Assembly (NCBI GenBank): GCA_029263215.1
Contig: JAJCXY010000053.1
Span: 76,417 to 140,416, forward strand
DNA length: 64,000 nucleotides
Origin: Acidimicrobiales bacterium
GTDB lineage: Bacteria; Actinomycetota; Acidimicrobiia; Acidimicrobiales; Aldehydirespiratoraceae
Reading direction: 5' to 3'
The notes under the pieces were generated by a model. The model had not been told where the DNA came from and did no database searches. It was given only the letters and a program-made list of their open reading frames with translations. The position numbers and the translations under genes were made by a program. This document shows positions 14,651 to 21,387 of the stretch, one piece after another (the stretch's first letter is position 1; the number at the start of each line of letters is the position of its first letter).

Positions 14651-14674
14651 ATTCATCAAGATATCTTTATGAAT
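14651..14674. promoter_or_regulatory. Imperfect palindrome ATTCATCAAGATATCTTTATGAAT, a candidate operator of the ArsR/SahR-like regulator
   Basis: 22 of 24 positions are self-complementary, centred on GATATC. It lies 29 nt upstream of the regulator start in one of the few AT-rich islands of the window. The flanks extend the symmetry to 26 of 32 positions over 14647..14678. Confidence 0.6.
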
Positions 14675-14741
14675 CTATACTGAGAGCTCAGATGGTGGGG
14701 CTGGTCTGGAAGTAGACCGTGTTTCAGGGGGTTTCGAAGGG

Positions 14742-15392
14742 GTGCCGTCGACACCTCTAGTGGGCGCGTCCCCGAGCCTCACCCTGGAGCCCCTGCTTCA
14801 TCGCCTCTTCACCGCCCATGTGGACTCAGTGTTCAACGTCGCCTATCGAGTCACCTGGAATCGCGCCGATGCCGAGGATGTGGTGCAGTCGAGCTTCTTG
14901 AAGGTCATCGTCAACCACGGCCAACTCGATGATCCGTCTCGCGAGCGGGCCTGGGTGCTTCAGGTTGCCTACCGCGAGGCAATCGCCGTGTTGCGCAGGC
15001 GACGCGAGCAACCGATCGATCCCTCCGTGCTTCCCGACTCGCCCTCCGCTGATCCATCGCCCGACGAGGCCGTCGTGCTCTCCGACCTGGCCCGGATGAT
15101 CAGCGGAGCATTCGAGCGCATGACTGCTCCCGAACGTATGGCCGTGGTCTTGCGCGACGTCGAGGGGCTGGCCATGAAGGAGGTCGCGTCGGTGATGGGC
15201 CTCGGGCTGTCGGCGGCCAAGATGAGGGTGCATCGGGGCCGCCAAACTCTCCGCATCCTGCTCGAATCGGAAGGACTGCGAGGAACGCACTCGCCTCTAC
15301 GCGGCGATGGTGGCGGATCTCACCGGGCCGCGCTGACCGCGTCGATGAGTTTATCGACGCTCGGCCGGTCGTCGGGGCCTTCGCCCCAGTAA
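14742..15392 (+). CDS. ECF-type sigma-70 family RNA polymerase sigma factor
   Basis: 216-aa ORF with a GTG start. Region 2 is VFNVAYRVTWNRADAEDVVQSSFLKV. Region 4 is ERMAVVLRDVEGLAMKEVASVMGLGLSAAKMRVHRGRQTL. A ~40-aa low-complexity tail overlaps the convergent gene. Confidence 0.85.
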   Translation: MPSTPLVGASPSLTLEPLLHRLFTAHVDSVFNVAYRVTWNRADAEDVVQSSFLKVIVNHGQLDDPSRERAWVLQVAYREAIAVLRRRREQPIDPSVLPDSPSADPSPDEAVVLSDLARMISGAFERMTAPERMAVVLRDVEGLAMKEVASVMGLGLSAAKMRVHRGRQTLRILLESEGLRGTHSPLRGDGGGSHRAALTASMSLSTLGRSSGPSPQ

Positions 15393-15877
15393 CCCCACAC
15401 CAGTGTGCCATCAGGGCCGATCACGAAATCACCTCCGAGTTGGAGGGTGTCCTCGGTGGGTCGACCAAGGCCCCTGAGCCCGTTCTTGCGGAAGAGCTCG
15501 ACGTAGCGGCGAAGTGAACGCAGCCCCCACACCCGACGAACCGAGCCCCTTCCCAGGCCGAACGCCCGATAGGCGCGGCGGTCGTCGTCTATGAGGATCG
15601 TGTAAGGGAGTTCGTTCACGGTGAGGTAGTCGACCAGGTGGGCGCGCTGGGTGAACGTGATCAGGACCACATCGGTGGCCTCACCCAGCTCGTCGAGGCG
15701 ATCGCGCACGGCGATCGCATGTGCGACACACGGGAGTCAATGGATATGACGGTGAAAGATGAGCACCACCGTTTGGCCCAGATGGCCGTCCAGGCGCCAG
15801 TCGTTACCGGCCTCGTCGCGGAGGTGCACCTCGGGCGCGGTGGCACCTATTGGCGGCCTGGTCGGTGATGTTGGCAT
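15320..15877 (-). CDS. Peroxiredoxin-like thioredoxin-fold protein (AhpC/TSA-type) with one in-frame TGA at codon 47. It is a candidate selenoprotein (U-L-P-C); the alternative is a pseudogene.
   Basis: The frame of the track ORF 15320..15709 continues upstream without any other stop to the ATG at 15877, which is preceded by AGGAGA. The translation reads ...VVLIFHRHIH-TGA-LPCVAHAIAVRDRLDEL.... The TGA (15737..15739) sits where homologues carry the first Cys of the CxxC motif. Confidence 0.6.
15698..15718 (-). promoter_or_regulatory. Candidate SECIS-like hairpin GCGAUCGC-CGUGC-GCGAUCGC, starting 18 nt 3' of the in-frame UGA
   Basis: A perfect 8-bp stem and a 5-nt loop containing GU, read directly from the minus-strand mRNA sequence. 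Confidence 0.4.
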
Positions 15878-15909
15878 GGCTGTCTCCTGACTCTGCGGTG
15901 CATGTCGCG

Positions 15910-16887: not shown

Positions 16888-17940
16888 TCAGCTGGTGGTG
16901 GGAAGACCAGCACTGATCCAGGCATCGATTCCGCCGTCGATCTCGGTGACGTCGGTGAACCCGAGGCTGCGCATCAGAGCGAGGGTCTGGCCGCTGCGGT
17001 TTCCCGACCGGCAGTAGAGGAGGTAGGGCTCGTCGGGGTCGAGTTCGGCCAACCGATCGGCGAAGTCGTCGCGGTAGAAGTCGAGCATGGTTGCGTCTTC
17101 GAGATGGCCTGCGTCGAACTCCTCCTGGGTGCGCACGTCGAGCACGACCAGGTTGTCGGGGGGGTTGGAGTGGAGTTCGGCGGCGACGCTGGCCGACACC
17201 GTCTCGAGGCTCTGGGTGTCGGCGGGGGCTGCGTCTTCTGAGGGGGAGTCGCCGACGGTTGCTGCGGCTGCATCGACGAAGGCGCCGAACTGATCGATGG
17301 AGATCTCACCGGCCCAGCGCGTGAGGACCGACCCGTCGGCGCCTACCGCCACCCCGAACGGGAAGCTACCCAGTCCGTAACCCTGGGCGAGTGCGCCGTC
17401 GTCGCTGTCGACGATGATGGTGCCGGTGAAGCCCTCTTCTTCAAACCACGCAGACGGGGGGTAGTTGGTGGCCGTCGTCTCGACGCTGGTGCTCACCGCC
17501 AAGATCTCGACCCCATTGGGGACGTCGTTGGCCGCCATCCAGTCGACGACCTTAGGGAGCTCGACCTGGCAATGGGGACACCAGTGGGCGAGGAACAGGA
17601 TCACCCGCGCCACCCCGTCGTCGGGACGGATCTGCACCCGGTCGCCGTCGAGGGTCTGGGCGATGAGCTGAGGGGCCGCCAGTCCGGCGGCGTCGTTGGG
17701 ACTCGCGAACCGGGGAAGCGGGTCGCCGATCGTCTCCGCGAAAGCGGTCTCCTCCACGTTGGAGGCAGGAGCGCTGTCGCCTCCCGATGACAGGGCGATG
17801 GCCACGATAGCTGCCAGCAGGATTATGGCTCCGACCCACAACACCGGCGATTGCAGGATGGTGCGGTTGGGGGAGTCCTCCGCGGCGGCGACCCGTGGTG
17901 GGATGCGGCCGTGTTTTGAGGTGTTGGGACGATTGCTCAC
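16888..17940 (-). CDS. Membrane-anchored TlpA/ResA-like thioredoxin fused to a C-terminal rhodanese domain
   Basis: ORF 16888..18063, with the start placed at GTG 17940 (a GTGA overlap with the dsbB-like stop). It has one N-terminal TM helix (VLWVGAIILLAAIVAIAL), the thioredoxin motif HWCPHC, and a rhodanese active-site loop YCRSGNRSG. Confidence 0.8.
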   Translation of the reverse strand: MSNRPNTSKHGRIPPRVAAAEDSPNRTILQSPVLWVGAIILLAAIVAIALSSGGDSAPASNVEETAFAETIGDPLPRFASPNDAAGLAAPQLIAQTLDGDRVQIRPDDGVARVILFLAHWCPHCQVELPKVVDWMAANDVPNGVEILAVSTSVETTATNYPPSAWFEEEGFTGTIIVDSDDGALAQGYGLGSFPFGVAVGADGSVLTRWAGEISIDQFGAFVDAAAATVGDSPSEDAAPADTQSLETVSASVAAELHSNPPDNLVVLDVRTQEEFDAGHLEDATMLDFYRDDFADRLAELDPDEPYLLYCRSGNRSGQTLALMRSLGFTDVTEIDGGIDAWISAGLPTTS

Positions 17941-18449
17941 GTTTGCTCCTGGGGGGAAGAACGGATGGAGAGGCTGGTGAGGGCGATGATCAGCCCGAAG
18001 GAGATGGCGGCCATTTGGGGAATGGTCATCCAGCCGAATGCCTCGACCCAACGACCCGTGCAAGGGTTGGTTATGTCACATGCTGAGCTCTGCTCGGGGA
18101 ACCACTGGAGTTGGACGTGGTAGAGCGAGATCACCAGTCCGATCGAGGCGATGATCCGCACATAGGGCATGGGGCTGAGATCGCGGCGCAGGGCCGCTAT
18201 CGGCAGGATCACAGCCAGTGGGTACATGGCGATGCGCTGGTACCAGCAGAACTCACAAGGCAGGAAGTCGGCGAACTCCGAGAAGTAGAGACTTCCGAGG
18301 GTGGCGCCGACAGCCACCAGGGCCGCGATCTCGTGGGCGGACGGGGAGACCCGGGCCCGGAGGTCTGGAACCGAGAGCGCTGCGATCGTGCCGGCCGCGC
18401 CTCCCAGCAGGAGTAGCCCGAAGAATGTCGCCATCGTCGCGGAGGACAT
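17937..18449 (-). CDS. Disulfide bond formation protein B family (BdbC/DsbB-like)
   Basis: 170-aa ORF with four predicted TM segments. It carries the signature LPCEFCWYQRIAMYP and a second Cys pair in the later loop (SSACDITNPC). Confidence 0.8.
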   Translation of the reverse strand: MSSATMATFFGLLLLGGAAGTIAALSVPDLRARVSPSAHEIAALVAVGATLGSLYFSEFADFLPCEFCWYQRIAMYPLAVILPIAALRRDLSPMPYVRIIASIGLVISLYHVQLQWFPEQSSACDITNPCTGRWVEAFGWMTIPQMAAISFGLIIALTSLSIRSSPQEQT

Positions 18450-18456
18450 TCCGCTA

Positions 18457-18468
18457 TTGTACGTACAA
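18457..18468. promoter_or_regulatory. Perfect 12-bp palindrome TTGTACGTACAA, a candidate GntR/HutC-type operator
   Basis: Lies in the 69-bp divergent intergenic region between the dsbB-like gene and the GntR gene. It fits the GT-N-AC core typical of GntR-family sites. Confidence 0.55.
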
Positions 18469-18518
18469 ACGGAGATAAAACAGGTAGCGGCGCAACAAGA
18501 GGGTCAGAGGAGGAATCG

Positions 18519-19298: not shown

Positions 19299-19544
19299 TC
19301 AACTCAACTTCAAGAAGAGTTTCTCGAGTTCGGCGGGGTCGGACTCGGAGTCGCGGTCGGCGAGGGCCGCGGCCATGAGTCGGAAGCCCACTCGATCGAG
19401 GGCCCCCTTGGCCGCAGCCAGTTGGGTGACGATGTCGCGACATTCTTCACCTTCGGCCACGAGCCGTTGGATGCCTCGGATCTGACCTTCGAGTCGACGG
19501 AGGCGCTTGATCACGTCGGCGTTGGTTTCCTCGGGGAACTGCAT
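19299..19544 (-). CDS. CsoR/RcnR/CstR-family (DUF156) metal- or persulfide-sensing type repressor with an atypical x-C-x-x sensor fingerprint
   Basis: ORF 19299..19658, with the start placed at MQFPEETNADVIKRLRRLEGQIRGIQRLV (ATG 19544). The family core is RLRRxEGQxRG. It has a single Cys (C35) and no His anywhere in the 81 aa. Confidence 0.8.
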   Translation of the reverse strand: MQFPEETNADVIKRLRRLEGQIRGIQRLVAEGEECRDIVTQLAAAKGALDRVGFRLMAAALADRDSESDPAELEKLFLKLS

Positions 19545-19553
19545 GGCGAGAGC

Positions 19554-19592
19554 ATACCTCCGGGGGTATTCGGAGCATACCTCGGGGGGTAT
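19554..19592. promoter_or_regulatory. Two tandem CsoR-type operators: ATACCTCCGGGGGTAT (19554..19569) and ATACCTCGGGGGGTAT (19577..19592)
   Basis: Both fit the ATACC-N6-GGTAT GC-cored inverted repeat. They sit in the divergent csoR-like/sulP intergenic region, inside a direct repeat GAGCATACCTC(C/G)GGGGGTAT. Confidence 0.7.
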
Positions 19593-19593
19593 G

Positions 19594-19622
19594 TTGACTA
19601 ATCCTCTTAATGTCCGTATATT
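19594..19622 (+). promoter_or_regulatory. Sigma-70-type promoter TTGACT-17 nt-TATATT driving a leaderless SulP mRNA
   Basis: The -35 box is at 19594..19599 and the -10 box at 19617..19622. The ATG of sulP is at 19630, 7 nt after the -10 box, with no room for an SD sequence. Confidence 0.6.
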
Positions 19623-19629
19623 CGTACAT

Positions 19630-21387
19630 ATGTCCTTCGCCTCCCGGTACCTCCCCATCCTGTCCTGGGCACCGGGATACCAGCGCTCCGATCTACGCAG
19701 CGATCTCGGCGCCGGGCTAACCGTCGGCGCGATGCTGGTCCCCCAGGCGATGGCCTACGCACTGCTCGCCGGACTTCCCCCCGAAGTAGGCCTTTACGCC
19801 GCAACCGTCCCGGTGATCATCTACGCCTTCTTCGGAACCTCCCGCCAACTCGCGGTCGGGCCGGTGGCGATCGTCTCCCTTCTCACCGCATCGGCCCTTG
19901 CCCCCCTGGTGGAGGAAGGCACCGCGGGCTACATCGGGGCCGCGGCCCTGCTCGCCCTGATGGTTGGCATCATCCACATCGTGCTCGGTGTGGGCCGCCT
20001 CGGATTCCTCGTCAACTTCCTGTCGCATTCAGTGCTGGTGGGGTTCACCGCCGCCGCGGCGCTGATAATCGGCTTCTCCCAGGTGAAGCACCTCCTGGGG
20101 ATCTCACTCGAACGAAAGGATCACTTCTACGAGACCGTGATCGCGGTGGGAGAGAATCTCGCCGATGCCCACGCAGTCACCGTGATCATCGGGTTGGGCT
20201 CGCTGGCCGTCCTGTTCACCCTGAAGCGACTGGTGCCTCAAATACCTGCCGCTCTGGTGGTGGTGGTGGGGTCGATCCTGGCCGTCGAACTCCTCCGTCT
20301 CGAACGTGAAGGGGTGTCGGTGGTTGGCGACATCCCCGACTCCTTGCCGGCCTTCGGCCTCCCCGACTTCGATGGCTCGATGATCAGCAACCTCGCCACC
20401 ACCGCCCTGGTGATCACCCTGGTGGGGTTCATGGAGTCCATCGCGGTGGCCAAGGTGTATGCCCGCCGTCATCGCTACGACATCGATGCCAACCGTGAAC
20501 TCATCGGGTTGGGAGCAGCCAACGTGGCCGCCGGCCTGTTCGGCGGCTACCCGGTGACCGGTGGGTTCTCTCGCACCGCGGTGAACGACACCGCCGGCGC
20601 TCGAACCCCAATGGCGTCACTCATCACCGCCGCCATCGTCTTGATGACGATCGCCTTCTTCACCCCGCTTCTCAGTTCCCTTCCCAACGCCGCACTCGGC
20701 GCGATCATCATCATGGCGGTGATCGGACTCATCGACGTGAAGGAGATGCGCCACATCATCGCGGTGAAGAAGTCGGACCTGATCGGTCTGGGAGTGGCCT
20801 TCGGAGCCACCCTCGTGCTCGGCATCGAGTTGGGTATAGGGGTGGCGGTGGTGGCATCGATGCTCGTCGTGTTCGCCCGCATGTCGAGCCCCCATGTGGC
20901 CACACTCGGCCACGTCAAGGGCACGACGAGCTACCGAAACGTCGAACGCTTCCCGGAAGTACAGATGGTCGAGGGAATGACCATCGTCCGAATCGACGCG
21001 GCCCTGTCATTCGCCAATGCCGCTTCGACAAAGCGCATCCTCCTCGCCTACGCCGACGCGATCGAATCGACCCCGCGAACCCTGCTGCTCGACGCGTCGG
21101 GTATCAACGATCTCGATGCCACCGGCGCCGAGATGCTGAGTGAGGTGATGCCCGACCTGGAAGACCGCGGTGTTGCCCTGCACCTGACCGACATAAAGGG
21201 TCCGGTGCGTGATGTCCTCCACCGGGCAGGGATCTGGGAGCAACTCGAAGGCCGTATTCATGCATCCACCCACGACGCCGTAAAAGCGATCATCGAGTTG
21301 AGATCCGCCCCCGGTGATCAGCGCCGATCGGGCATCGACGAAGGCCTCGGCGAGGCCTGGGCCGAGAACGGTCTGCTCGATGCCTGA
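19630..21387 (+). CDS. SulP-family anion transporter with a C-terminal STAS domain
   Basis: ORF 19507..21387, with the start placed at MSFASRYLPILSWAPGYQRSDLRSDLGAGLTVGAMLVPQAMAYA (ATG 19630). This is the canonical SulP N-terminus. A STAS domain is present at the C-terminus. Confidence 0.9.
   Translation: MSFASRYLPILSWAPGYQRSDLRSDLGAGLTVGAMLVPQAMAYALLAGLPPEVGLYAATVPVIIYAFFGTSRQLAVGPVAIVSLLTASALAPLVEEGTAGYIGAAALLALMVGIIHIVLGVGRLGFLVNFLSHSVLVGFTAAAALIIGFSQVKHLLGISLERKDHFYETVIAVGENLADAHAVTVIIGLGSLAVLFTLKRLVPQIPAALVVVVGSILAVELLRLEREGVSVVGDIPDSLPAFGLPDFDGSMISNLATTALVITLVGFMESIAVAKVYARRHRYDIDANRELIGLGAANVAAGLFGGYPVTGGFSRTAVNDTAGARTPMASLITAAIVLMTIAFFTPLLSSLPNAALGAIIIMAVIGLIDVKEMRHIIAVKKSDLIGLGVAFGATLVLGIELGIGVAVVASMLVVFARMSSPHVATLGHVKGTTSYRNVERFPEVQMVEGMTIVRIDAALSFANAASTKRILLAYADAIESTPRTLLLDASGINDLDATGAEMLSEVMPDLEDRGVALHLTDIKGPVRDVLHRAGIWEQLEGRIHASTHDAVKAIIELRSAPGDQRRSGIDEGLGEAWAENGLLDA

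What the first reader, a model, noticed from the sequence alone, without database searches (positions are those of the whole stretch)
15320..15877. In-frame UGA at the first Cys position of a CxxC motif in a peroxiredoxin-like gene, followed by a perfect hairpin: candidate selenoprotein
What the sequence shows:
- The ORF track reports only a 129-aa C-terminal fragment (15320..15709), which leaves about 170 nt apparently non-coding.
- Reading the same frame upstream gives a continuous 185-codon reading frame. It starts at the ATG at 15877, which is preceded by AGGAGA at a 6-nt spacing.
- The translation is MPTSPTRPPIGATAPEVHLRDEAGNDWRLDGHLGQTVVLIFHRHIH-TGA-LPCVAHAIAVRDRLDELGEATDVVLITF...
- The single TGA (15737..15739, minus strand) falls after the beta-strand VVLIFHRH. 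In AhpC/TSA-type and PRXL2-type thioredoxin-fold proteins this is where the redox CxxC begins, so the motif here would read U-L-P-C.
- Eighteen nt after the UGA the mRNA can fold into GCGAUCGC-CGUGC-GCGAUCGC (15698..15718). This is an 8-bp perfect stem with a GU-containing loop.

Why it matters:
- That hairpin is at a position and of a size compatible with bacterial SECIS elements.
- UxxC thioredoxin-fold proteins are the most common kind of bacterial selenoprotein.
- Standard gene callers split or truncate such genes, so this locus would be mis-annotated.
Basis: partly seen in the sequence, partly recalled or inferred. Interest (0 to 1): 0.8.

Follow-up and report, generated by a model that had tools for sequence, protein, structure and literature searches.

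The report
Mis-annotated selenoprotein gene in Acidimicrobiales

Summary
A 185-codon minus-strand frame (15877..15320) has one in-frame TGA (15739..15737) in the motif H-U-L-P-C. A perfect 8-bp hairpin with loop CGUGC (15718..15698) starts 18 nt after it.

The TGA is not an accident:
- All 80 species-level relatives recovered have TGA at this codon. Nearly all are Acidimicrobiales or Acidimicrobiia MAGs, down to about 47% identity.
- The same gene's real terminator drifts (TGA 65, TAG 10, TAA 5).
- Both halves carry equal coding signal and protein conservation.
- In full-length Cys homologues the TGA column is the first Cys of a CLPC motif at the N-terminus of helix 1 of a thioredoxin fold.

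The hairpin is kept in 78 of 81 sequences. G-U in the loop is nearly invariant, some pairs change compensatorily, and synonymous sites inside it are strongly constrained.

The protein scores above the curated cutoff of NCBIfam NF040769 (SelL-related redox protein).

No selA, selB, selC or selD lies in the window or in 1.3 Mb of flanks, so machinery in this genome is untested. Published tables list SelD, SelA and SelB plus 7–15 selenoproteins in Ilumatobacter and Microthrix, lineages that carry this gene.

Verdict: a genuine selenoprotein gene, a new member of a known kind, of modest interest.

The parts
15320..15877 (-). Complete selenoprotein coding sequence, 185 codons plus stop. It encodes a SelL-related (Prx-like 2) thioredoxin-fold redox protein with Sec at residue 47.
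   Evidence: Translation. Pfam AhpC-TSA, AhpC-TSA_2 and Redoxin. NCBIfam NF040769 at 127.9 bits against a cutoff of 120. Frame open and conserved on both sides of the TGA in 80 of 80 relatives.
15875..15888 (-). Translation start: Shine-Dalgarno-like AGGAGA (15888..15883), a 5-nt spacer, and ATG (15877..15875).
   Evidence: Read directly. An SD-like motif precedes an upstream start in 26 of 78 relatives, against 4 of 78 before the first start codon after the TGA.
15737..15739 (-). In-frame UGA, the proposed Sec codon (U47), in the context CAU-UGA-C.
   Evidence: TGA in 81 of 81 sequences, while the gene's own terminator is TGA 65, TAG 10, TAA 5. Aligns with the first Cys of CLPC in Cys homologues. 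The preceding His codon is CAU in 69 of 72 and the following base is C in 79 of 80.
15698..15718 (-). Candidate bacterial SECIS hairpin: an 8-bp stem (GCGAUCGC / GCGAUCGC) with apical loop CGUGC. The conserved G-U of the loop lies 30-31 nt from the U of UGA.
   Evidence: for the structure. Across 81 sequences 79% of cells are paired, against 21-47% when partners are slid. Pair 25-39 is GC 37, GU 13, AU 7, CG 3. G31 and U32 are nearly invariant. The MFE hairpin holds G31/U32 in the loop in 78 of 81. Four-fold wobble entropy is 0.43 bit inside against 1.42 outside.
15740..15874 (-). N-terminal 45 codons after the ATG, which standard gene calling misses or calls as a separate 46-aa ORF. It contains the GxxAP strand region and the strand VVLIFHRH that precedes the active site.
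   Evidence: No stop in the 40 upstream codons of 80 of 80 relatives, against stops in 71 of 160 off-frame controls. GC1/2/3 is 0.77/0.48/0.77. Mean pairwise identity is 52%, against 47% downstream. Called as a separate 46-aa ORF in L001 and L090.
15320..15709 (-). The 129-aa fragment that gene callers annotate. It starts at the GTG inside the hairpin loop.
   Evidence: the ORF listing. All 120 best database homologues are fragments of about 130 aa. GenBank names such copies 'AhpC/TSA family protein'.

Best explanation
The locus is one gene for a 185-residue selenoprotein of the SelL-related / peroxiredoxin-like-2 branch of the thioredoxin-fold superfamily.

Translation (inferred). Translation starts at the ATG at 15877. 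At UGA-47 the ribosome does not terminate. The hairpin that begins 18 nt downstream acts as a bacterial SECIS element. With its exposed G-U in a 5-nt apical loop, it recruits SelB-GTP-Sec-tRNA(Sec), which inserts selenocysteine. The U-UGA-C context is a weak termination context by established knowledge and favours recoding.

Product (shown by alignment and modelling of a Cys homologue). The product has a U-L-P-C redox centre at the N-terminus of helix 1.

Chemistry (inferred). The selenolate of Sec47 is the attacking nucleophile on an oxidised substrate, such as a disulfide, a sulfenic acid or possibly a peroxide. Cys50 resolves the intermediate to an intramolecular selenenylsulfide, and a cellular thiol reductant re-reduces it. 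The physiological substrate is unknown.
For: 1. The TGA is in frame and both halves are coding. There are no stops in 80 of 80 upstream frames, the codon-position GC signature matches, and protein identity is 52% upstream against 47% downstream.
2. TGA is present in 81 of 81 sequences across species down to about 47% identity, whereas the same gene's terminator drifts: TGA 65, TAG 10, TAA 5.
3. The TGA column equals the first Cys of CLPC in full-length homologues, for example P0128 at 50% identity. An AF2 model of P0128 (pLDDT 96) puts that Cys at the N-cap of helix 43-54, straight after strand 32-36.
4. The hairpin is conserved.
   - 78 of 81 sequences fold with G31/U32 in the apical loop, and the commonest loop is CGUGC.
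   - Compensatory pairs are present, 79% of cells are paired against at most 47% when slid, and 0 of 500 shuffles reach the covariation score.
   - Synonymous sites are constrained inside the hairpin (0.43 against 1.42 bit).
   - Three Cys-type homologues lack such a hairpin.
5. The protein belongs to curated family NF040769. The window protein scores 127.9 bits, four divergent Sec-type members score 124-137, and six Cys-type members score 124-165, against a cutoff of 120.
6. The Sec machinery exists in the lineage. Peng et al. 2016 (PMC5029168), Tables S1 and S2, list SelD, SelA and SelB as present, with 15, 10 and 7 selenoproteins in Ilumatobacter coccineus, I. nonamiensis and Ca. Microthrix parvicella. 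selA, selB, selC and selD are reported as universal in the sister order Actinomarinales. Ilumatobacter, Ilumatobacteraceae and Microthrix MAGs are among the carriers.
7. An independent assembly has the identical sequence.
Against: - No tRNA-Sec, selA, selB or selD was found in the 64-kb window or in about 1.3 Mb of flanks of relatives. The probes were validated against PDB sequences. Machinery in this particular genome is therefore unverified.
- The single-sequence fold is not better than shuffles (z = -0.81).
- RNAalifold did not recover the hairpin as the consensus. The lower three pairs use two alternative registers and are unpaired in about half of the cells in the register I imposed.
- No Rfam family matches.
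- The shuffle control does not correct for relatedness.
- Only three Cys-type DNA controls were available.
- No other selenoprotein gene was recognised in the flanks.
- There is no experimental evidence of selenium incorporation.
Confidence: 0.9

Rival explanations
1. SECIS-independent read-through. The UGA in its leaky U-UGA-C context is decoded at low level by a near-cognate tRNA (Cys or Trp), giving a Cys- or Trp-containing protein. Alternatively, this particular genome has lost the Sec machinery and the gene is a recent relic.
For: The machinery is not seen in the window or the flanks. The UGA-C context is conserved.
Against: - A conserved hairpin with synonymous-site constraint is not needed for near-cognate read-through.
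- TGA has never been replaced by TGC or TGT in 81 species. Replacement would be the easy route to a Cys enzyme.
- The window's hairpin is a perfect 8 bp, so there is no sign of decay.
- The lineage has SelA, SelB and SelD.
Confidence: 0.05
2. Split gene. The TGA is a genuine stop. A 46-aa peptide and a 129-aa protein, re-initiated at the GUG displayed in the hairpin loop, are made separately.
For: Gene callers choose exactly this GTG. GUG is the commonest form of that codon, in 68 of 80 sequences.
Against: - That codon is GUC or GUU, neither of which is a start codon, in 12 of 80 sequences.
- An SD-like motif precedes the first internal start in only 4 of 78.
- The break falls exactly on the catalytic Cys column and would remove the active-site residue and strands 1-3 of the fold.
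- A true stop would drift to TAG or TAA as the terminator does.
Confidence: 0.03
3. Pseudogene or sequencing or assembly error at 15737..15739.
For: None beyond the bare presence of a stop codon.
Against: - The sequence is identical in an independent assembly.
- TGA is present in 81 of 81 species-level representatives.
- There are no frameshifts or further stops, and both halves are under equal protein-level constraint.
Confidence: 0.01

Closest known systems
NCBIfam NF040769, 'SelL-related redox protein' (Pfam AhpC-TSA_2 / Prx-like 2 branch)
   Same: The protein matches the full profile above the curated cutoff, as do divergent Sec-type relatives and the Cys-type homologues. The redox motif is at the same position.
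   Different: The Acidimicrobiales clade scores lowest in the family (124-137 bits against up to 165 for Cys forms). It carries Sec instead of the first Cys in every member recovered. Public records annotate it as a truncated 'AhpC/TSA family protein'.
'Prx-like thiol:disulfide oxidoreductase' bacterial selenoproteins (UxxC/UxxU, PF00578), listed in reviews PMC13188914 and PMC9312934
   Same: Both have a Prx-like fold with Sec as the first residue of a UxxC motif, and both are predicted redox proteins of unknown substrate.
   Different: The taxon here is aerobic, high-GC Actinomycetota rather than Deltaproteobacteria.
Selenoprotein L (SelL) of fish and aquatic invertebrates (Shchedrina et al. 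2007, cited in PMC2398784; details from my own knowledge)
   Same: It is a Prx-like thioredoxin-fold protein whose redox motif occupies the CxxC position. NCBI named the bacterial family after it.
   Different: SelL has UxxU, which forms a diselenide, and uses a eukaryotic 3'-UTR SECIS. Here the motif is UxxC in 81 of 81 sequences and the SECIS-like hairpin lies inside the coding region.
Canonical peroxiredoxins (Bcp/PrxQ 3hjp, AhpE 1xvw) and the thiol-disulfide oxidoreductase ResA (1su9)
   Same: These are the best structural matches to the modelled Cys homologue: TM 0.65-0.78, E about 1e-11.
   Different: Sequence identity is only 17-25%. The Prx motif PxxxTxxC is replaced by RxxxUxxC. Sec sits at the thioredoxin/ResA-type N-terminal nucleophile position, not at the peroxidatic-Cys position.
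E. coli fdhF-type bacterial SECIS (established knowledge)
   Same: It is a stem-loop immediately downstream of the UGA, inside the coding sequence, with a conserved G-U exposed in a small apical loop.
   Different: The conserved G-U lies at nt 31-32 from the U of UGA rather than about 23-24. No conserved bulged U was identified. SelB binding is untested. No Rfam model matches.

Membership tests
Bacterial selenoprotein gene (SelB/SECIS-dependent UGA recoding) | In-frame UGA that aligns with Cys in homologues | tested here: met
   The TGA column is the first Cys of CLPC in P0128, P0151, P0163, P0268 and others.
Bacterial selenoprotein gene (SelB/SECIS-dependent UGA recoding) | Protein-coding conservation on both sides of the UGA, with the UGA itself conserved | tested here: met
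   81 of 81 have TGA. There are no upstream stops in 80 of 80, with equal GC3 signature and equal protein identity on both sides. The gene's terminator drifts: TGA 65, TAG 10, TAA 5.
Bacterial selenoprotein gene (SelB/SECIS-dependent UGA recoding) | Stem-loop just downstream of the UGA with a conserved G/U in a small apical loop | tested here: met
   The hairpin is present in 78 of 81, shows covariation, G31/U32 are nearly invariant, and synonymous sites inside it are constrained. Caveats: RNAalifold did not recover it, there is no Rfam hit, and no dedicated bSECIS predictor was available.
Bacterial selenoprotein gene (SelB/SECIS-dependent UGA recoding) | selA, selB, selC (tRNA-Sec) and selD in the same genome | not testable with these tools
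Lineage-level support: SelD, SelA and SelB are listed as present in Ilumatobacter (two species) and Ca. Microthrix (PMC5029168 Table S1) and in Actinomarinales.
Bacterial selenoprotein gene (SelB/SECIS-dependent UGA recoding) | Selenium demonstrably incorporated at the UGA position | not testable with these tools
   This needs 75Se labelling or mass spectrometry.
NCBIfam NF040769 SelL-related redox protein | Whole-protein score at or above the curated cutoff (120 bits) over the full profile | tested here: met
   127.9 bits over profile positions 2-172 of 173, with C substituted for U. Relatives score 124-165 bits.
Canonical peroxiredoxin (Prx) | Active-site motif PxxxT/SxxC with the peroxidatic Cys as the last residue | tested here: not met
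   In the alignment to Bcp4 (3hjp), R43 aligns with the Pro, U47 with the Thr and C50 with the Cp position. The PrxQ/Bcp NCBIfam models score far below their cutoffs.
Canonical peroxiredoxin (Prx) | Thioredoxin/Prx fold | tested here: met
   The AF2 model of Cys homologue P0128 has pLDDT 96. Foldseek against PDB gives TM 0.65-0.78 to Bcp, AhpE and ResA.
Eukaryotic-type selenoprotein L | UxxU motif (two Sec residues, diselenide) | tested here: not met
   The motif is U-L/V-P-C in 81 of 81, and the second position is TGY (Cys) in every sequence.
NCBIfam NF047660 'HUIPC motif thioredoxin-like selenoprotein' | Match to the family profile | tested here: not met
   The local motif H-U-L-P-C resembles it, but NF047660 is not among the hits at E <= 0.01 or E <= 1e-5.
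Rfam SECIS families | Covariance-model match at the gathering threshold | tested here: not met
   There is no Rfam match anywhere in the window. Bacterial SECIS elements are poorly covered by Rfam (noted in 10.64898/2026.04.03.716425).

The most novel reading that the evidence does not exclude
The Acidimicrobiales copies form an obligately Sec-containing clade. No Cys variant occurs among 81 species-level representatives. Their SECIS has its own tight consensus: a 5-bp core RUCGC/GCGAY, loop CGUGC, and G-U at +31/32 from the UGA. If this consensus reflects a lineage-specific SelB recognition rule, it could serve as a search key to uncover a larger, systematically mis-annotated selenoproteome in these abundant aerobic soil, marine and wastewater actinobacteria. 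The recurrent proximity to SulP permeases and to DsbB / redoxin-rhodanese genes might point to a role in handling sulfur or selenium compounds.
Probability: 0.15. Interest if true: 0.45.

Novelty: new member of a known kind. Interest (0 to 1): 0.3.

Why it matters
- Annotation. The gene is cut into a 46-aa and a 129-aa piece, or only the latter is kept, in essentially every public record. All 120 best database hits, and most 50%-identity cluster representatives, are truncated. GenBank names them 'AhpC/TSA family protein'. The active-site half of the protein is therefore missing from databases for a whole class of abundant environmental bacteria.
- Biology. It adds a clean, deeply conserved example of Sec use in aerobic, high-GC Actinomycetota. 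It also provides an 81-sequence alignment of a coding-region SECIS that could be used to train bacterial SECIS and selenoprotein predictors.
- Limits. It does not change what is known about how Sec is decoded, and the family is already curated.

Tried and rejected
I used the exact 138 aa downstream of the TGA instead.
2. Rfam at the gathering threshold found nothing in the window.
3. RNAalifold on the 81-sequence alignment returned only a weak 3-bp helix, not the hairpin. I attribute this to the two registers of the lower stem. The imposed-structure counts and the per-sequence folds are reported instead.
4. ARAGORN on the window and all 84 loci found no tRNA-Sec.
5. tblastn with E. coli SelD and SelA probes, recalled from memory and then validated against PDB 3u0o and 8uzw, plus a SelB N-terminus, found no hits in the window or the loci.
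6. Two home-made scans for further selenoprotein genes in the window and flanks found nothing convincing. One used coding signal on both sides of a TGA. The other added a strict hairpin filter. Hits were same-frame neighbouring genes, antisense frames or terminators.
7. The SelL paper (PMC1955791) is not held.
8. The afdb50 fold library was unavailable.
9. I considered spending the remaining whole-database protein searches to find SelA or SelD on the same large contigs as the gene (for example OZ244139.1, 6.3 Mb). I had no Acidimicrobiales seed sequence, and an E. coli seed would only return enterobacterial hits, so I did not run them.
10. Genome-wide reassignment of UGA was rejected. This gene, and 65 of 80 orthologues, end in TGA.
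Full report
**1. The observation**

Reading the minus strand from 15877 gives ATG, 45 further codons, TGA at 15739..15737, 138 further codons and a TGA stop at 15322..15320. The palindromic hairpin is GCGAUCGC-CGUGC-GCGAUCGC at 15718..15698 and starts 18 nt after the UGA. The ORF listing shows only the 129-aa fragment 15320..15709.

On its own the hairpin is not statistically remarkable in 65% GC DNA. An 86-nt fold has z = -0.81 against shuffles. The case rests on comparative data.

**2. What the protein is**

With Cys substituted for the stop, the protein matches Pfam AhpC-TSA, AhpC-TSA_2 and Redoxin. It also matches NCBIfam NF040769, 'SelL-related redox protein', at 127.9 bits against a curated cutoff of 120, over the whole profile. 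Four divergent Sec-type relatives score 124-137 bits and six Cys-type homologues score 124-165 bits, all above the cutoff.

There is no close solved structure by sequence. The best is Bcp4 (3hjp) at E = 0.004. An AlphaFold model of the nearest full-length Cys homologue, P0128 (50% identity), is very confident (pLDDT 96, pTM 0.91). It places C42-L-P-C45 at the N-terminus of helix 43-54, directly after strand 32-36. Its best structural matches are Bcp/PrxQ, AhpE and ResA, at TM 0.65-0.78.

In the HMMER alignment to Bcp4, the Sec column falls on the Thr of the peroxiredoxin motif PxxxTxxC. C50 falls on the peroxidatic-Cys position and R43 on the Pro. The protein therefore has a thioredoxin/ResA-type U-x-x-C centre on a Prx-like scaffold, not a canonical peroxiredoxin site.

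**3. The TGA is conserved and decoded**

All 120 best hits in the 5.8-billion-protein collection are fragments of about 130 aa covering 70% of the query. Most representatives of 50%-identity clusters are likewise truncated, starting just after the TGA position. The minority of full-length homologues have Cys in the TGA column, in the motif 'HRHLACLPC'.

A scan of one genome per species returned 80 loci. Nearly all are labelled Acidimicrobiales, Acidimicrobiia, Ilumatobacteraceae, Ilumatobacter or Ca. Microthrix. Findings across the window plus these 80 loci:
- All 81 sequences have TGA at this codon, in H-U-L/V-P-C.
- The 40 codons upstream contain no stop in 80 of 80, whereas off-frames have stops in 71 of 160.
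- Those upstream codons have the same codon-position GC signature as the downstream part (0.77/0.48/0.77 against 0.73/0.46/0.83).
- They are as conserved at protein level as the downstream part (52% against 47% mean pairwise identity).
- The same gene's real terminator drifts (TGA 65, TAG 10, TAA 5), while the internal codon never does.

UGA is not reassigned genome-wide, since it terminates this very gene. The window's sequence is reproduced base for base, over 241 nt including the TGA and the hairpin, in an independent assembly of run SRR15505519.

**4. The hairpin**

In a gapless 66-column alignment starting at the UGA, the stem is columns 22-29 with 35-42 and the loop is columns 30-34.
- G28 and U32 are invariant, and G31 is nearly so.
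- With the window's structure imposed, 79.4% of cells pair, against 21-47% when partners are slid by 1-3 columns.
- Five of the eight pairs show changes on both sides. Pair 25-39 is GC 37, GU 13, AU 7, CG 3.
- None of 500 column shuffles reaches the observed paired fraction or covariation score. That shuffle control does not correct for relatedness, so it is supportive rather than a probability.
- The upper five pairs are kept in 76-96% of sequences.
- The lower three pairs alternate between GCG...CGC and GCC...(C)GG, a register shift with a bulge. This is probably why RNAalifold failed to return the helix.

Folded one by one, 78 of 81 sequences give a minimum-energy hairpin whose apical loop contains G31/U32. 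The loops are CGUGC in 44 and CGUGA in 10. Mean free energy is -11.4 kcal/mol, against -8.5 ± 2.8 for shuffles. Three Cys-type homologues give only -7.1 to -7.6 and have no such hairpin.

The strongest RNA-level evidence comes from synonymous sites. Four-fold degenerate third positions in codons +8 to +11, which form the upper stem and loop, have entropies of 0.13-0.73 bit (mean 0.43). Fifteen comparable sites elsewhere in the same alignment have a mean of 1.42 bit. Amino-acid conservation alone therefore cannot explain the conserved nucleotides.

The immediate context is also fixed. The preceding His codon is CAU in 69 of 72, although CAC dominates at other His codons. The base after the UGA is C in 79 of 80.

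A strictly defined hairpin of this type (at least 6 bp, G-U early in a 4-6 nt loop, correct distance) occurs at 0.6% of about 10,460 other open-frame TGA sites in the same DNA.

**5. The Sec machinery**

The window has no tRNA gene at all. None of the 84 flanking regions contains a tRNA-Sec. tblastn with SelD, SelA and SelB probes found nothing in the window or in 1.3 Mb of flanks. The probes were validated at 767 and 1012 bits against PDB 3u0o and 8uzw. The gene is thus not linked to the machinery, and the window cannot answer the question.

Published surveys help at lineage level.
- Table S1 of Peng et al. 2016 (PMC5029168) lists SelD+, SelA+ and SelB+ for Ilumatobacter coccineus, I. nonamiensis and Ca. 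Microthrix parvicella.
- Table S2 of the same paper gives them 15, 10 and 7 selenoproteins.
- Acidimicrobium ferrooxidans is negative in that survey.
- A 2026 preprint reports selA, selB, selC and selD in all 84 complete genomes of Actinomarinales, the sister order.

Ilumatobacter, Ilumatobacteraceae and Microthrix MAGs are among the carriers of this gene. This is good indirect support, but it is not a test on the source genome.

**6. Mechanism**

Shown:
- One continuous, conserved coding frame through a conserved UGA at the catalytic-Cys position.
- A conserved, structurally constrained hairpin just downstream.
- Membership of a curated redox family.

Inferred:
- SelB-Sec-tRNA(Sec) is recruited by the hairpin and inserts Sec47.
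- Sec47 is the nucleophile, Cys50 is the resolving residue, and they form a selenenylsulfide.
- An unidentified thiol system re-reduces the protein.

The substrate is unknown. Gene neighbourhood is only weakly conserved. The window's arrangement is DsbB, redoxin-rhodanese, F5/8-type-C protein, this gene, ArsR-methyltransferase and MTHFR. It recurs in the closest relatives only. Across about 80 loci a SulP permease is nearby in 14, the F5/8-C protein in 10 and an ECF sigma factor in 9.

**7. Rivals**

- A pseudogene or sequencing error is excluded.
- A split gene re-initiating at the loop GUG is unlikely. That codon is not a start codon in 12 of 80. SD-like motifs are rare before it (4 of 78). 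The stop never drifts. The break would also delete the active site.
- SECIS-independent near-cognate read-through, or recent loss of the machinery in this genome, cannot be excluded from the window. It does not explain the constrained hairpin, or why TGA never became TGC or TGT.

**8. Comparison with what is known, and novelty**

Bacterial Prx-like UxxC/UxxU selenoproteins have been catalogued since 2004 and appear in current reviews. NCBI curates this very family as NF040769.
- A 'ULPU-containing selenoprotein' is listed by Peng et al., but I could not test its relation to this family.
- Eukaryotic SelL differs in having UxxU and a 3'-UTR SECIS.

I therefore classify the locus as a new member of a known kind. 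It is interesting mainly because it is mis-annotated essentially everywhere, and because the 81-species alignment gives a clean coding-region SECIS consensus for an abundant aerobic actinobacterial class.

Noticed in passing
L085:3-1318 (ENA ERZ23498372 scaffold_47470, 2.6 kb): The 3' part of selA (52% identical to E. coli SelA) is followed by an ORF whose first 87 residues are a SelB-type GTPase N-terminus. That N-terminus is fused in frame to a Cys-type SelL-related protein, from 'LACLPC' onward (P0146). This is either an assembly chimera or a real rearrangement placing a member of this family inside a sel operon.
   Followed up: partly
L086:748-1281 (P0128, the closest Cys-type homologue, GCA_040900245.1): At the position of the SECIS hairpin the Cys-type gene still has a weaker 5-bp hairpin, CUCGC-ACU-GCGAG, without G-U in the loop. 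This may be a fossil of a Sec-to-Cys conversion, or coincidence.
   Followed up: no
window 16888-18503 (minus strand): Two genes lie just upstream of the selenoprotein gene cluster: a DsbB-family gene (17937-18503) and a fusion protein with an AhpC/redoxin domain plus a C-terminal rhodanese domain (16888-18075). The same pair is present in L001, L006 and L013. This may be a thiol/sulfur-transfer module working with the selenoprotein.
   Followed up: partly
window 14673-15392 (+): An ECF-type sigma-70 gene converges on the selenoprotein gene and overlaps its 3' end by 73 nt (15320-15392). It is absent at this position in the closest relative, L001, but a homologue lies near the gene in 9 other loci.
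   Followed up: partly
L001/L005 (GCA_964196515.1 and CAXMSE010000103.1): The closest relative in the species-representative genome scan (82% protein identity to the window, syntenic over more than 10 kb) is deposited as 'uncultured Gammaproteobacteria bacterium'. Every other relative is Acidimicrobiales or Actinomycetota, so the taxonomic label of that bin is probably wrong.
   Followed up: no
window 15740-15742 and the same codon in relatives: The His codon immediately before the UGA is CAU in 69 of 72 sequences, although CAC is preferred at the other His codons of the gene. The base after the UGA is C in 79 of 80. The U-UGA-C context is conserved beyond the hairpin.
   Followed up: partly
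P0155, P0169, P0172, P0197, P0199 (418-543 aa): Several cluster representatives carry the SelL-related fragment at their N-terminus, followed by about 300-400 extra residues. These may be fusions or read-through of the terminator into the next gene. They were not examined.
   Followed up: no
window 19486-21387 (+): A SulP-family sulfate permease with a STAS domain lies 3.6 kb from the gene. A homologue is within 10 kb of the gene in 14 of about 80 loci. Whether this reflects sulfur or selenium oxyanion uptake is speculation.
   Followed up: partly
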